From an uncultured Finegoldia sp. (GTDB lineage: Bacteria > Bacillota > Clostridia > Tissierellales > Peptoniphilaceae): 64,000 nt of DNA. A program made the position numbers and the translations under genes. Shown here one piece after another: positions 20,712 to 22,061 of the stretch (positions are counted from its first letter, which is position 1; the number at the start of each line of letters is the position of its first letter). Location: contig NZ_CAMXVC010000001.1 in NCBI RefSeq assembly GCF_947252345.1, forward strand, positions 39,544 to 103,543, given 5' to 3'. The notes below the pieces were generated by a model. The model was not told where the DNA came from, searched no databases, and was given only the letters and a program-made list of their open reading frames with translations.

Positions 20712-20714
20712 TTA

Positions 20715-20739
20715 AAAGCCACATTGTGTGGCTTTTTTT
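20715..20739 (+). terminator. rho-independent terminator of the ybaK-gshAB operon (copy 1 of a duplicated sequence)
   Basis: AAAGCCACATTGTGTGGCTTTTTTT. Confidence 0.7.
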
Positions 20740-20817
20740 GTGTGAAAAATATAAATCCCCTCTCAAAAAATTTCACCTTCTATTGTCATCCCTGCGAAAA
20801 TAATTTGTATAAAAAAA

Positions 20818-20858
20818 ATGTTATTTGTAGATTAAAAACTTGTAACTACAAATAACAT
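20818..20858. repeat. perfect 13-bp inverted repeat ATGTTATTTGTAG / CTACAAATAACAT with a 15-bp spacer
   Basis: Read directly from the sequence; lies downstream of the RHH antitoxin gene. Confidence 0.5.
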
Positions 20859-20900
20859 TGCGCTGTTTTTTAATATATATTTTTTCTGAATAAACAACCC

Positions 20901-21119
20901 TCATATACCCAACTCTTTTTTTACCTCATCATCACTGTAAAATTTCATTTTGCCTTTGTTAAGGAGATACTCATCAACTATCTTTTCATCATACTCTTGT
21001 TCGATTTTTTCCAATAATGATTCTCTTGCCCAGTCGGATAAAGTTTTATTTTTTTCTTTTGAAACATTTGTGAAAAGTTCCTTATCCGATTCGCTCAATC
21101 TAATCGCTATAGTAGCCAT
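20901..21119 (-). CDS. RelB/DinJ-like ribbon-helix-helix antitoxin (DUF6290-like); no cognate toxin adjacent
   Basis: ATG at 21119 with AGGAGTG RBS. MATIAIRLSESDKELF...YSDDEVKKELGI matches the RelB-family RHH N-terminus and the conserved C-terminal tail. Confidence 0.55.
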   Translation of the reverse strand: MATIAIRLSESDKELFTNVSKEKNKTLSDWARESLLEKIEQEYDEKIVDEYLLNKGKMKFYSDDEVKKELGI

Positions 21120-21332
21120 AATATCACTCCTTTTTTGTGTTACATCGTAACACAATTTTAATATAAATTCTTAACTTAGTCCACCCTACAACTTACGACA
21201 CCTTGATTTTCAGTTGTGATTTTCATTACCTCAACTCCTTCTATTTTTATTATATCCTAATATTTTATTCTAATACAATGCTGGACTTTTATGCGCATTA
21301 TGCGTATTATTAAAGCATAAGGAGGTTAGACG

Positions 21333-21710
21333 ATGTTAAAATCATATCCTGCTATTTTTCATAAAGAAGAAGATTCATATTGGGTGGAATTTCCAGAGTT
21401 TGGCGGTGGAACTGAAGGAGATAATATCGAAGAAGCAATGGTGAATGCTCATCAAATGTTGGAAAGCGTGTTGGCTACTTTCATTGATGAAGATCTTCCA
21501 CTTCCCAAACCAAGTGATATTACAAAAATAAAAGTCGAAGATGGATTTACGTCTATGATTCAAGTTGATCCCACACCATTTATCAAAAACAACAAAACCA
21601 TCAGAAAAAATGTTACTGTCCCTGAATGGTTGGTTAGACTTTGTGACCGTCAAAATATCAATTATTCCGAAGTTTTGACCACAGCTCTTGAAAAGAAAAT
21701 CAACGCATAA
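21333..21710 (+). CDS. hicB: HicB-family antitoxin; no hicA adjacent
   Basis: YPAIFHKEEDSYWVEFPEFGGGTEGDNIEEAMVNAHQMLE is the canonical HicB N-domain, with a C-terminal DNA-binding tail. AAGGAGG RBS. Confidence 0.7.
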   Translation: MLKSYPAIFHKEEDSYWVEFPEFGGGTEGDNIEEAMVNAHQMLESVLATFIDEDLPLPKPSDITKIKVEDGFTSMIQVDPTPFIKNNKTIRKNVTVPEWLVRLCDRQNINYSEVLTTALEKKINA

Positions 21711-21733
21711 TTTTGTAAATATTTTATTTCCCT

Positions 21734-21757
21734 AAGCCACATTGCGTGGCTTTTTTT
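21734..21757 (+). terminator. rho-independent terminator after hicB (copy 2 of the duplicated sequence)
   Basis: AAGCCACATTGCGTGGCTTTTTTT, followed by GTGTGTGTGAAAAAT as in copy 1. Confidence 0.7.
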
Positions 21758-22061
21758 GTGTGTGTGAAAAATGATTAAAAATTATTCCGATTGATTTCAT
21801 CTTCAGATATACAATCCACTAATTTTATATGTTTTAGCTATTGATTTAAGTCCACCTCATTCACCTGATAAGTATTCTAGTACAAATTTTATTTTAAATT
21901 TTTTTGTGTATTTTGGCATACAAAAGCCCCTCCATCCGCATTCCGTATTTTTGTGTTCATATCAATATTTTTTTGGAAAAAATGGTATTGACAATCAATA
22001 TCAATGTGCCTTAGAATTGTATTAGAGATTTTTCTCTAAAAAAATTTTTATAGGAGGTATT

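What the first reader, a model, noticed from the sequence alone, without database searches (positions are those of the whole stretch)
20712..21760. 1-kb islet with two divergent toxin-less antitoxin genes, flanked by a duplicated terminator sequence
The sequence AAGCCACATTG(T/C)GTGGCTTTTTTTGTGTG(TG)TGAAAAAT occurs at 20716-20750 (terminator of the gshAB operon) and again at 21734-21770. The two copies bracket a segment that holds a RelB/RHH-type antitoxin gene (minus strand) and a HicB antitoxin gene (plus strand). It contains neither a RelE/ParE nor a HicA toxin ORF. The direct repeats look like attL/attR-type duplication of an insertion target. The content suggests either decayed TA loci or retained antitoxins acting as anti-addiction or immunity genes.
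Basis: partly seen in the sequence, partly recalled or inferred. Interest (0 to 1): 0.55.

Follow-up and report, generated by a model that had tools for sequence, protein, structure and literature searches.

The report
Decayed toxin-antitoxin cluster between repeated terminators
The 1-kb segment is what remains of a three-system toxin-antitoxin cluster at a strain-variable hotspot of the Finegoldia magna chromosome: short deletions removed the toxin genes, two antitoxin genes survive under purifying selection, and the repeated terminator hairpin that brackets the cluster occurs only at this locus; this is a well-documented example of a known process, not a new kind of element.

Summary
A 29-nt terminator hairpin, T, occurs twice in the window (20716-20744 and 21734-21762). 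It brackets an intact relB-type gene (minus strand) and an intact hicB gene (plus strand), and no toxin gene is present.

About 65 related Finegoldia magna loci show what the segment is.
- The space between the T copies usually holds parE-relB, an orphan phd and an orphan hicB.
- Rare strains keep yoeB-phd or hicA-hicB.
- The window carries the scars: parE reduced to 8 homologous codons, phd to 16 codons, and hicA removed exactly between the two ribosome-binding sites, so hicB now sits behind the hicA promoter.

The antitoxins are not junk. Unbiased dN/dS is 0.05 for hicB and about 0.2 for relB.

T is not a dispersed motif. It was found only in F. magna and only at this locus. Strains carrying extra modules (an iron ABC transporter, a membrane-protein module) have a third T copy at the module boundary. 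No empty site and no integrase was found, so the attL/attR reading is compatible with the data but unproven.

Verdict: a decayed multi-TA cluster with retained orphan antitoxins in a modular hotspot. It is a known kind of feature, of modest interest.

The parts
19401..20711 (+). Conserved left flank: ATP-grasp-like ligase gene ('gshB-like'), last gene of the ybaK / GCS2-ligase / ATP-grasp operon
   Evidence: Pfam hit CP_ATPgrasp_2 is weak and below threshold. The gene lies immediately left of T in every related locus.
20714..20750 (+). T1: terminator hairpin (stem 20714-20736), T-run, GTGTG, then the shared AAAAAT
   Evidence: -12 kcal/mol. A copy sits here in all strains.
20817..20859 (-). 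AT-rich 14-bp hairpin followed by a T-run on the minus strand: the original parE/relB terminator
   Evidence: Inverted repeat I7. Folds at -14.9 kcal/mol, z = -4.5. Homologous to the hairpin downstream of parE in L007 and to the one on plasmid pFMC.
20820..20904 (-). parE scar: an ATG overlapping the relB stop codon, 8 codons homologous to the ParE N-terminus (MRVVYSEK), then the out-of-context 3' tail. About 215-225 nt of parE are missing.
   Evidence: tblastn aligns ParE residues 1-8 at 20904-20881. Alignment A1. Translation.
20901..21119 (-). relB-type (DUF6290, ribbon-helix-helix) antitoxin gene, intact, 72 aa
   Evidence: It is 94-97% identical in nucleotides to relB of strains that still have parE. 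dN/dS is 0.18-0.21.
21135..21155 (.). Perfect 9-bp palindrome TTGTGTTAC-ATC-GTAACACAA between the relB promoter-like site and the relB ribosome-binding site; candidate RelB operator (inferred)
   Evidence: Conserved in the chromosomal alleles.
21176..21226 (-). phd/yefM 5' scar: 16 codons (MKITTENQGVVSCRVD*) with their own ribosome-binding site. Other strains have 42, 80 or 85 codons here.
   Evidence: Alignment A1 shows an extra 78-nt in-frame deletion relative to L005-L013. Phd_L004 starts MKITTAENF. Pfam PhdYeFM matches the full-length relatives.
21211..21332 (+). Retained hicA promoter and leader, now fused to hicB. It contains -35 TGGACT (21282-21287), -10 TATTAT (21305-21310), the tandem TATGCGCAT/TATGCGTAT (21290-21307) and the hybrid ribosome-binding site AAGGAGGTTAGACG. 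The hicA ORF is absent.
   Evidence: promoter-like site. Alignment A1 against L004: 224 nt carrying hicA are missing, exactly between the hicA and hicB ribosome-binding sites.
21333..21710 (+). hicB antitoxin gene, intact, 125 aa (N-terminal HicB fold plus C-terminal ribbon-helix-helix)
   Evidence: The identical protein is listed in 351 blocks of the index. Unbiased dN/dS is 0.05.
21734..21772 (+). T2: the second copy of the terminator hairpin, T-run, (GT)4G, then the shared AAAAAT
   Evidence: A copy follows hicB in nearly all strains.
21770..21832 (-). Second phd remnant: the 3' end (…KLVDCISEDEINRNNF*), directly right of T2
   Evidence: blastn gives 81-86% identity to the 3' ends of phd in L028-L041. 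Translation.
21821..21959 (-). IS3-family insertion-sequence remnant: left end plus OrfA codons 1-33
   Evidence: 83% nucleotide identity to the IS3 copy in L031. tblastn aligns OrfA residues 1-33 at 21919-21821. That OrfA/OrfB pair has HTH_Tnp_1 and rve domains.
22062..25652 (+). Strain-variable module right of T2: a CWB2 / leucine-rich-repeat / Big_2 surface protein gene, present only in the window clade
   Evidence: Absent from L004-L013, where T2 directly abuts the dCMP deaminase upstream region.
26038..26049 (+). Partial third T copy (AGCTTTTGTGTG), at the point where homology to the other clade resumes
   Evidence: the sequence aligns with GGCTTTTTTTGTGTG followed by GTTTCCCTGTGTTTCTGTTTAGAT of other strains.
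26137..26556 (+). Conserved right flank: dCMP deaminase gene, followed by pyruvate carboxylase

Best explanation
The segment between the two T copies is the eroded core of a cluster of three type II toxin-antitoxin operons: parE-relB, yoeB-phd and hicA-hicB. The cluster occupies a strain-variable hotspot of the Finegoldia magna chromosome, between the ybaK / GCS2-ligase / ATP-grasp operon and the dCMP-deaminase / pyruvate-carboxylase genes.

Shown:
- Short deletions between microhomologies removed the toxin genes. hicA was lost between the hicA and hicB ribosome-binding sites, parE at AGAAAAAT/AGGAAAAAT, and part of phd at AGTTGT.
- These deletions left relB and hicB intact.
- Each surviving gene still has a promoter-like site, a ribosome-binding site and a terminator.
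- Both surviving genes are under purifying selection.

Inferred: both are expressed as autoregulated DNA-binding antitoxins. The most likely reason they are kept is to neutralise cognate toxins. parE+ and hicA+ alleles circulate at this same, recombining locus in the species, so this would be in-trans immunity or anti-addiction. A domesticated regulatory role is the alternative.

The repeated T:
- T is a Rho-independent terminator hairpin unique to this locus.
- It marks module boundaries. Each additional module (iron ABC transporter, DUF2752/DUF4234 membrane module, and in part the surface-protein module) brings a further T copy.
- Inferred: T serves as the joint at which modules are gained and lost, whether by short-homology recombination or by site-specific recombination. 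The enzyme is unknown.
For: Locus variants:
- Related strains have, between T copies, parE-relB-phd'-hicB (L005-L013), parE-relB-phd-hicB (L028-L036, L049-L068), yoeB-phd alone (L015, L035), yoeB-phd-hicB (L039) or yoeB-phd-hicA-hicB (L004).
- The family assignments of the toxins were verified.

Deletion scars:
- The scars and their microhomologies are read from alignment A1, tblastn and translations.
- L019, in the window's own clade, still has parE.

Selection:
- hicB dN/dS is 0.05 in the sample that was not selected through the HicB protein.
- relB dN/dS is 0.18.
- relB against its plasmid paralogue has dN 0.11 with dS saturated.

Exchange between lineages:
- dS between the window and the other clade is 0.10-0.23 for hicB and 0.08-0.20 for relB, against 0.56-0.61 for pyc and more than 1 for the left-flank genes.
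- The window's hicB is closer to that of L007 (other clade, 98.1%) than to that of L019 (same clade, 95.8%).

T:
- T is unique to this locus in the genome and metagenome collections.
- About 85 copies reduce to a handful of 22-mers, each differing by one base.
- Three T copies bound two modules in L004, L031 and L049-L058.
Against: - Expression of relB and hicB, and neutralisation of any toxin, were not tested.
- No cognate HicA or ParE was found on the two F. magna plasmids in PLSDB or elsewhere in the 64-kb window. The rest of this strain's genome was not available.
- hicB itself is truncated or interrupted in 3 loci (L017, L029, L041), so it is dispensable in some backgrounds.
- Not every module is bounded by T. 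The ABC-exporter module replaces the tail of T2 with no duplication (L012, L039, L059-L068). The surface-protein module has only a partial right-hand copy, and IS3 debris lies next to T2. IS-mediated and illegitimate events therefore contribute as well.
- The ancestral gene order cannot be reconstructed with confidence.
Confidence: 0.75

Rival explanations
1. T is the core of an attachment site at the 3' end of the ATP-grasp gene. The TA cluster and the other modules are integrase-less remnants (CIME-like elements) that were stacked by site-specific recombination, with the recombinase supplied in trans or since lost.
For: - Direct repeats have sharp boundaries, starting exactly at AAGCC, whatever lies to the left.
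- A new copy appears for each extra module, giving three copies in L004, L031 and L049-L058.
- In some pairs the identity extends a few module-specific bases beyond T: GGAAATAAAGC in L004, AAAAAT(T)ATAAAT in L001. Duplication of a target would produce this.
- The hairpin core is almost invariant across clades whose flanking genes differ by 10-23%.
- The location at the 3' end of a conserved gene is typical of tyrosine-integrase targets. Accretion of CIMEs is described in PMC5704250.
Against: - No integrase, relaxase or other recombinase lies in or beside any of about 65 loci, within flanks of up to 10 kb.
- No empty site with a single T was found.
- T is absent from 2.9 million viral contigs.
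- Some modules are not bounded by T.
- A 25-45-nt repeat can also be used by homologous recombination.
Confidence: 0.22
2. T is only a terminator. It was duplicated once, for example when the TA cluster arrived carrying or copying the neighbouring terminator. The module variation arises from ordinary homologous recombination in the conserved flanking genes, occasional T-T recombination, IS activity and illegitimate deletion. T has no dedicated recombination function.
For: - T has the canonical anatomy and position of a terminator.
- IS3 and IS110 copies or remnants lie inside the locus.
- Many events are plain microhomology deletions.
- The ABC-exporter module breaks T2 without duplicating it.
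- Allele sharing across clades fits homologous replacement of the whole region.
Against: - The explanation does not say why each of three unrelated modules ends with another near-identical copy of the same 25-nt hairpin.
- It also does not say why the stem and loop show almost no compensatory or neutral change in about 85 copies.
Confidence: 0.4
3. The two antitoxin genes are functionless leftovers on their way to loss. Antitoxins outlive toxins only because loss of the toxin has to come first.
For: - The order of decay seen here, toxins first, is what this model predicts.
- phd is visibly eroding, from 85 to 42 to 16 codons.
- hicB is broken in 3 loci.
- Orphan antitoxins are common in other species (PMC7192599).
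Against: - hicB dN/dS of 0.05 equals that of the neighbouring housekeeping gene.
- The orphan state of hicB is found in about 40 loci across clades, with up to 0.3 synonymous changes per site and almost no amino-acid change.
- The hicA deletion keeps the promoter and ribosome-binding site exactly in register.
- The toxin-less relB paralogue on plasmid pFMC has stayed an intact 72-codon ORF although its synonymous divergence is saturated.
Confidence: 0.12

Closest known systems
Decaying chromosomal type II TA loci and orphan antitoxins (for example the Klebsiella pneumoniae survey, PMC7192599)
   Same: Antitoxin genes sit in the genomic context of a valid TA pair but lack the toxin. Anti-addiction, cross-talk or a new regulatory role are the proposed functions.
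   Different: Here the deletion junctions, the intact-pair alleles at the same locus, and the purifying selection on the orphans are all visible within one species. Three systems are packed into about 1 kb.
HicAB of Streptococcus pneumoniae (PDB 5YRZ) and streptococcal hicAB loci
   Same: HicB of the same architecture aligns over its full length (E 2e-17). The closest non-Finegoldia homologues (70-78% identity) sit downstream of a 63-aa HicA.
   Different: The window has no hicA, and hicB is fused to the hicA promoter and ribosome-binding site. Toxin neutralisation was not tested.
RelB/ParE-type pairs with a DUF6290 antitoxin (NCBIfam NF046040)
   Same: The antitoxin family matches. In most F. 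magna strains the gene overlaps a ParE-family toxin gene by ATGA.
   Different: The toxin is reduced to a 27-codon scar. The same toxin-less layout is found on plasmid pFMC.
CIMEs (cis-mobilizable elements) and tandem accretion at att sites in streptococci (PMC5704250)
   Same: Modules without an integrase are bounded by direct repeats at the 3' end of a conserved gene, and are stacked in tandem with one repeat per junction.
   Different: No related element with an integrase, no empty site and no excision product is known. The repeat is a bare terminator hairpin. Some modules lack the repeat.
Chromosomal integron cassette arrays (attC-bounded cassettes, often TA cassettes)
   Same: A hairpin-forming repeat follows each module, TA genes are among the cargo, and all modules sit at one chromosomal site.
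   Different: T is a 19-23-nt perfect hairpin with a U-run, not a 57-141-nt attC with R/L boxes. There is no integron integrase or attI. The modules carry their own promoters, run in both orientations and can be multi-gene (up to 4.8 kb).

Membership tests
HicAB type II toxin-antitoxin system | HicB antitoxin domain with a C-terminal DNA-binding (ribbon-helix-helix) domain | tested here: met
   Pfam PF15919, E 3.7e-13. Full-length alignment to HicB 5YRZ, including residues 52-123.
HicAB type II toxin-antitoxin system | Adjacent hicA toxin gene in the same operon | tested here: not met
   No HicA coding sequence anywhere in the window. 224 nt carrying hicA are deleted relative to L004. hicA is present in 1 of about 45 loci that have hicB.
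HicAB type II toxin-antitoxin system | The antitoxin neutralises the toxin and represses its own promoter | not testable with these tools
   Needs co-expression and EMSA or reporter assays.
RelB(DUF6290)-ParE type II toxin-antitoxin system | RelB-family ribbon-helix-helix antitoxin | tested here: met
   DUF6290, E 3.8e-24. NF046040 scores 65.7 bits against a cut-off of 50.
RelB(DUF6290)-ParE type II toxin-antitoxin system | Adjacent RelE/ParE-family toxin gene | tested here: not met
   Only ParE codons 1-8 remain. An intact 84-86-aa ParE (PF05016, E 9e-16) lies next to relB in most other strains.
Phd/YefM-YoeB type II toxin-antitoxin system | Intact antitoxin and toxin genes | tested here: not met
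   The window has only a 16-codon 5' remnant (21176-21226) and a 3' remnant (21770-21832). Intact pairs occur in L004, L015, L035 and L039.
Functional orphan antitoxin / anti-addiction module | Intact ORF with its own expression signals, under purifying selection | tested here: met
   Promoter-like sites and ribosome-binding sites are retained. dN/dS is 0.05 for hicB and 0.18 for relB.
Functional orphan antitoxin / anti-addiction module | A cognate toxin on a mobile element or a circulating allele that the orphan can neutralise | tested here: inconclusive
   hicA+ and parE+ alleles exist at the same locus in other strains. No cognate toxin was found on F. magna plasmids in PLSDB. Neutralisation was not tested.
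Site-specifically integrated element (CIME-like, attL/attR) | Direct repeats flanking the element at the end of a conserved gene | tested here: met
   T1 and T2 are present in all strains, and extra copies sit at the junctions of extra modules.
Site-specifically integrated element (CIME-like, attL/attR) | An empty site with one repeat copy exists in related genomes | tested here: not met
   None was found among about 65 loci from isolate genomes and metagenomes. The smallest content between copies is a 625-nt yoeB-phd module.
Site-specifically integrated element (CIME-like, attL/attR) | A cognate recombinase, or a related element that encodes one, at the same site | tested here: not met
   No integrase or serine recombinase appears in any gene table. 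Only IS3 and IS110 transposases are present. T is absent from viral contigs.
Integron gene cassette | attC site (imperfect palindrome of 57-141 nt with R/L boxes) and an adjacent integron integrase with attI | tested here: not met
   T is a 10-bp perfect stem with a 3-nt loop and a T-run. No integrase lies within 10 kb. The attC covariance model was not available. The criteria applied come from established knowledge.
Intrinsic (Rho-independent) terminator | GC-containing hairpin followed by a T-run, just after a stop codon | tested here: met
   T1 is 3 nt and T2 is 23 nt downstream of a stop codon. Termination activity itself was not tested.
Dispersed intergenic repeat (REP/BOX-like terminator family) | Many copies scattered around the genome | tested here: not met
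   There are 2 copies in the 64-kb window and 1-2 per F. magna representative genome, all at this locus. No copy occurs in any other species. All 15 metagenome hits are at this locus.

The most novel reading that the evidence does not exclude
The terminator hairpin T is a genuine recombination site. An unidentified trans-acting recombinase would use it to insert, stack and excise promoter-bearing gene modules (TA clusters, transporters, surface proteins) at a single chromosomal locus of a Gram-positive anaerobic coccus. This would be an integron-like or CIME-like cassette system whose attachment site doubles as a transcription terminator. The highly conserved orphan HicB would act as population-level immunity against the hicA-carrying version of the module.
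Probability: 0.12. Interest if true: 0.6.

Novelty: new member of a known kind. Interest (0 to 1): 0.33.

Why it matters
The locus gives an unusually complete within-species picture of how chromosomal toxin-antitoxin operons decay.
- Toxins are lost first, through precise microhomology deletions.
- Antitoxins are kept, re-wired to the original promoter and held under strong purifying selection.
- Every intermediate state is still segregating at one locus.

This makes the question of what orphan antitoxins do directly testable in F. magna, because the natural cognate toxins (HicA of L004, ParE of L007) are in hand.

The locus-specific terminator repeat at module boundaries is a smaller lead on how integrase-less hotspots exchange cargo.

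None of this changes current concepts. It documents known ones in a poorly studied human commensal and opportunistic pathogen.

Tried and rejected
1. Search for an empty site. I used exact-protein look-ups with both flanking genes, HicB and two HicB variants and scans for T in the genome and metagenome collections. No locus has a single T between the ATP-grasp and dCMP-deaminase genes. L042 and L040, which looked like candidates, carry the membrane-protein module.
2. T as a phage or plasmid attachment site. There are no hits in IMG/VR. The plasmid search hit only relB and hicB homologues, not T.
3. T as the native terminator of hicAB in other taxa. No T-like core follows hicB in the closest streptococcal-type loci.
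4. Cognate toxins on F. magna plasmids. None was found. The best HicA hits are on Enterococcus plasmids at 63% identity.
5. Known RNA families in 20300-22300. None at E <= 1.
6. My first dN/dS for hicB (0.011) was biased, because loci L004-L013 had been retrieved through the exact HicB protein. I recomputed it on loci retrieved by other means and obtained 0.05.
7. A gapless comparison of the 50 nt upstream of T is invalid, because 1-nt shifts in register distort it. I use only the counts of distinct hairpin cores from that call.
8. The integron attC reading was rejected on anatomy and on the absence of an integrase.
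Full report
**1. Checking the observation**

The sequence AAGCCACATTG(T/C)GTGGCTTTTTTTGTGTG is present at 20716-20744 and 21734-21762. It occurs nowhere else in the window, even with three mismatches allowed, and none is expected by chance. With a (TG)2 indel the match continues through AAAAAT.

Both copies are called terminator-like and fold as hairpins of -12 and -9.8 kcal/mol. T1 begins 3 nt after the stop codon of the ATP-grasp gene 19401-20711. T2 begins 23 nt after the hicB stop codon.

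Between them lie two genes:
- A 72-codon minus-strand gene (20901-21119). It matches DUF6290 at E 3.8e-24 and NCBIfam RelB antitoxin NF046040 above its cut-off.
- A 125-codon plus-strand gene (21333-21710). It matches HicB_lk_antitox at E 3.7e-13 and aligns end to end with S. pneumoniae HicB, 5YRZ.

No ParE/RelE, HicA or YoeB coding sequence exists in the 64-kb window apart from short scars.

The label 'gshAB' is only partly justified. The first gene is a GCS2 ligase homologue that scores below the equivalog cut-off. The second has no family hit above threshold.

**2. Organism and locus**

Exact-protein look-ups and pattern scans place the window in Finegoldia magna (record titles; NCBI names).

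The flanking genes are conserved in every related contig: ybaK-like, GCS2 ligase and ATP-grasp on the left, dCMP deaminase and pyruvate carboxylase on the right. The content between them varies (table).

The window belongs to a clade whose flanking genes differ from those of the larger clade (L004-L013, which includes chromosome CP085955.1):
- gshA-like: 23% nucleotide difference
- ATP-grasp: 15%
- pyc: 10%

**3. What normally lies between the T copies**

The commonest arrangement is T | parE(-) relB(-) phd(-) | hicB(+) | T. Here parE is intact at 84-86 codons, phd is an orphan of 80-85 codons or a 42-codon stump, and hicB is an orphan (L005-L013, L028-L036, L049-L068).

Rarer states are:
- T | yoeB phd | T, only 625 nt apart (L015, L035)
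- T | yoeB phd | hicB | T (L039)
- T | yoeB phd | hicA hicB | T (L004)

Pfam confirms ParE_toxin, HicA_toxin, YoeB_toxin and PhdYeFM for these relatives. hicA is present in one locus out of about 45 that carry hicB.

**4. The scars in the window** (alignment A1)

(a) hicA
- In L004 the hicA ribosome-binding site (TAAGGAGGTTATATG…) and the hicB ribosome-binding site (GAAGGGGGTTAGACGATG) are short direct repeats.
- In the window, and in nearly all strains, the 224 nt between them are gone. This leaves a single hybrid site, TAAGGAGGTTAGACGATG.
- hicB is therefore now the first gene behind the hicA promoter-like site (TGGACT-17-TATTAT, 21282-21310).

(b) parE
- The ATG that overlaps the relB stop codon, and 8 homologous codons (MRVVYSEK), remain. 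They are joined to the last few codons and to the original AT-rich terminator hairpin (20817-20859).
- The junction lies at an AGAAAAAT/AGGAAAAAT microhomology.
- L019, which shares the window's dCMP-deaminase protein, still has an 84-codon parE.

(c) phd
- A 16-codon stub with its own ribosome-binding site (21176-21226, MKITTENQGVVSCRVD*) is all that is left.
- Relative to the 42-codon stump of L005-L013 it has lost a further 78 nt in frame, between AGTTGT repeats.

- A second phd fragment, the 3' end (…KLVDCISEDEINRNNF*), lies at 21770-21832.
- It abuts the left end and first 33 OrfA codons of an IS3-family element at 21821-21959.

The window is therefore the most eroded state seen. Three toxins are gone, one antitoxin is gone, and two antitoxins are intact.

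**5. Are the surviving antitoxins functional genes?**

hicB
- My first estimate of dN/dS (0.011) was biased, because ten loci had been retrieved through the exact HicB protein.
- On loci retrieved through flanking genes or through T, the value is 0.05. That sample has 12 loci, 10 nucleotide alleles and 8 proteins. The neighbouring ATP-grasp gene gives the same value.
- All F. magna HicB variants in the protein collection are at least 96% identical. The next relatives are streptococcal at 70-78% identity, usually preceded by a 63-aa HicA.
- hicB is nevertheless truncated or interrupted in three loci, so it is not indispensable.

relB
- dN/dS is 0.18-0.21. Variation is concentrated in the C-terminal half, which in this family is the toxin-binding part. 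That assignment comes from established knowledge, not from a test here.
- The 189-kb plasmid pFMC of strain ATCC 29328, and the plasmid of the CP085955 strain, carry a relB paralogue (79% amino-acid identity).
- Its similarity to the window runs without a break through the parE-deletion scar and the hairpin: window 20795-21145, 76.5% identity, one piece.
- That ORF is intact even though its synonymous divergence is saturated (dN 0.11). A toxin-less relB has therefore persisted for a long time, unless the same deletion arose twice.

**6. History of the islet relative to its flanks**

Synonymous divergence between the window and the other clade:

| Gene | dS |
|---|---|
| hicB | 0.10-0.23 |
| relB | 0.08-0.20 |
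| pyc | 0.56-0.61 |
| ATP-grasp gene | 1.0-1.3 |
| gshA-like gene | 1.5-1.9 |

The window's hicB is closer to that of L007 (other clade, 98.1%) than to that of L019 (own clade, 95.8%). I infer that the TA module has been exchanged between F. magna lineages after they diverged.

**7. The repeated terminator**

It fails.
- The 25-mer occurs in only three of 185,579 species-representative genomes. All three are F. magna-type, with 1-2 copies each, all at this locus.
- All 15 metagenome hits are at this locus.
- There are no hits in viral contigs.
- There is nothing T-like after hicB in other taxa.

Across about 85 copies the 22-nt hairpin core takes only a few forms, each differing from the consensus by one base. 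The G/T tail after the T-run is highly variable.

T marks module boundaries:
- L004, and L033 with L039, have ATP-grasp | T | 4.8-kb iron ABC transporter (41% GC against 31% for the TA module) | T | TA cluster | T | dCMP deaminase.
- L031 and L049-L058 have … hicB | T | DUF2752 / zinc-ribbon / DUF4234 membrane module | T | dCMP deaminase.
- In the window clade the surface-protein module lies between a complete T2 and a partial copy (AGCTTTTGTGTG, 26038-26049), where homology to the other clade resumes.
- In some pairs the identity extends a few bases beyond T in a pair-specific way.

T does not explain everything:
- The ABC-exporter module interrupts T2 without any duplication.
- IS3 and IS110 copies sit in the locus.
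- No empty site and no integrase or other site-specific recombinase was seen in about 65 loci.

**8. Mechanism: what is shown and what is inferred**

Shown:
- The islet is the residue of three TA operons.
- The toxins were removed by short-repeat deletions that preserved the antitoxin genes and their expression signals.
- The antitoxins evolve under purifying selection.
- T is locus-specific and recurs at module junctions.

Inferred:
- relB and hicB are expressed and autoregulated. The candidate operators are the palindrome 21135-21155 and the tandem TATGCGYAT at 21290-21307.
- They are most likely kept because toxin-bearing alleles of the same modules circulate at this recombining locus. An antitoxin-only allele would then make its carrier immune to them, which is an anti-addiction logic. 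A domesticated regulatory role is the alternative.
- T acts as the joint for gain and loss of modules. I cannot tell whether this works through short-homology recombination or through an unknown site-specific recombinase. I give the passive/homologous reading about 0.4 and the att-site (CIME-like) reading about 0.2.

**9. Comparison with what is known**

- Orphan antitoxins in the context of decayed TA pairs are abundant in other species, and the same candidate roles have been proposed for them (PMC7192599).
- Integrase-less elements bounded by att repeats and stacked in tandem are known as CIMEs (PMC5704250).
- The locus works like these. As a TA system it fails the defining test of an adjacent toxin. 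As a CIME it fails the tests of an empty site and a cognate recombinase. As an integron cassette it fails on attC anatomy and on the absence of an integrase.
- I therefore file it as a decayed TA cluster with conserved orphan antitoxins in a modular chromosomal hotspot: a new, well-resolved member of a known kind.

**10. Verdict**

- The 'decayed TA / retained antitoxin' interpretation is supported and made more precise.
- The 'attL/attR insertion islet' interpretation is unproven, and the absence of an empty site and of a recombinase counts partly against it.
- Interest is modest, about 0.33.
- The most novel reading not excluded is that the terminator hairpin is a real cassette recombination site (probability about 0.12).

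Noticed in passing
window 21770-21959: Directly right of T2 lie a second phd fragment (3' end, minus strand, 21770-21832) and the left end plus the first 33 OrfA codons of an IS3-family insertion sequence (21821-21959). An intact copy of that IS interrupts the DUF2752 gene in L031. IS activity has therefore reshaped the junction to the surface-protein module.
   Followed up: yes
window 26038-26049: A partial third copy of the terminator repeat (AGCTTTTGTGTG) sits exactly where homology to strains that lack the surface-protein gene resumes.
   Followed up: partly
window 22062-25652: The CWB2 / leucine-rich-repeat / Big_2 surface-protein gene is present only in the window clade. Its length varies between strains (1196, 1180 and 683 aa). 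It has a Thr/Ser-rich low-complexity tract and two near-identical C-terminal repeats of about 385 nt (about 24893-25293 and 25284-25668). Many assemblies break inside it.
   Followed up: partly
window 25850-25997: An ORF fragment without a start codon, in frame +2 (…SFTADGVKDSVINNMPTDYRYTISELSGHGRSNEVIKSVEIEA*), lies between the surface-protein terminator and the dCMP deaminase gene. It is conserved in window-clade contigs. It looks like the 3' end of a lost gene.
   Followed up: no
window 13201-17484: A block of about 4.3 kb lies between the Lactamase_B_3 gene and ybaK in the window clade (Pfam table of L001). It holds an inosine-uridine nucleoside hydrolase and a four-gene ABC transporter with an SBP_bac_8 binding protein. 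The block is absent from the other clade (L005-L013), where the two genes are adjacent. This is a second variable region 3 kb upstream of the islet.
   Followed up: partly
window 18104-20711 compared with L005-L013: The GCS2-ligase and ATP-grasp genes are far more divergent between the two F. magna clades (77% and 85% nucleotide identity, dS 1.0-1.9) than pyruvate carboxylase on the other side of the hotspot (90%, dS about 0.6). The left flank may itself have been imported from a more distant lineage.
   Followed up: no
L043 (plasmid pFMC, NC_010371.1) 3729-4990: The plasmid carries a toxin-less relB paralogue with the same parE-deletion layout. It lies between a NERD (nuclease-related domain) gene and, about 650 nt away, a gene annotated as the RNA-guided endonuclease IscB. 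CP085956.1, the plasmid of the strain whose chromosome still has parE-relB, carries the same paralogue.
   Followed up: partly
L004 249-5056; L033 7634-11881: The T-bounded iron/siderophore ABC-transporter module has 41% G+C, against 31% for the adjacent TA module. This suggests acquisition from a different, higher-GC donor.
   Followed up: no
L050 7550-8725; L053 4210-5385: An IS110-family transposase gene is inserted between the orphan phd and hicB in some strains, in the divergent promoter region. It would separate hicB from the phd-side sequences.
   Followed up: no
window 21135-21155 and 21290-21307: Two candidate operators. The first is a perfect 9-bp-arm palindrome just upstream of the relB ribosome-binding site. 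The second is a tandem TATGCGCAT/TATGCGTAT overlapping the -10 of the retained hicA promoter. Both are conserved across chromosomal alleles, but the palindrome is not conserved on pFMC.
   Followed up: partly
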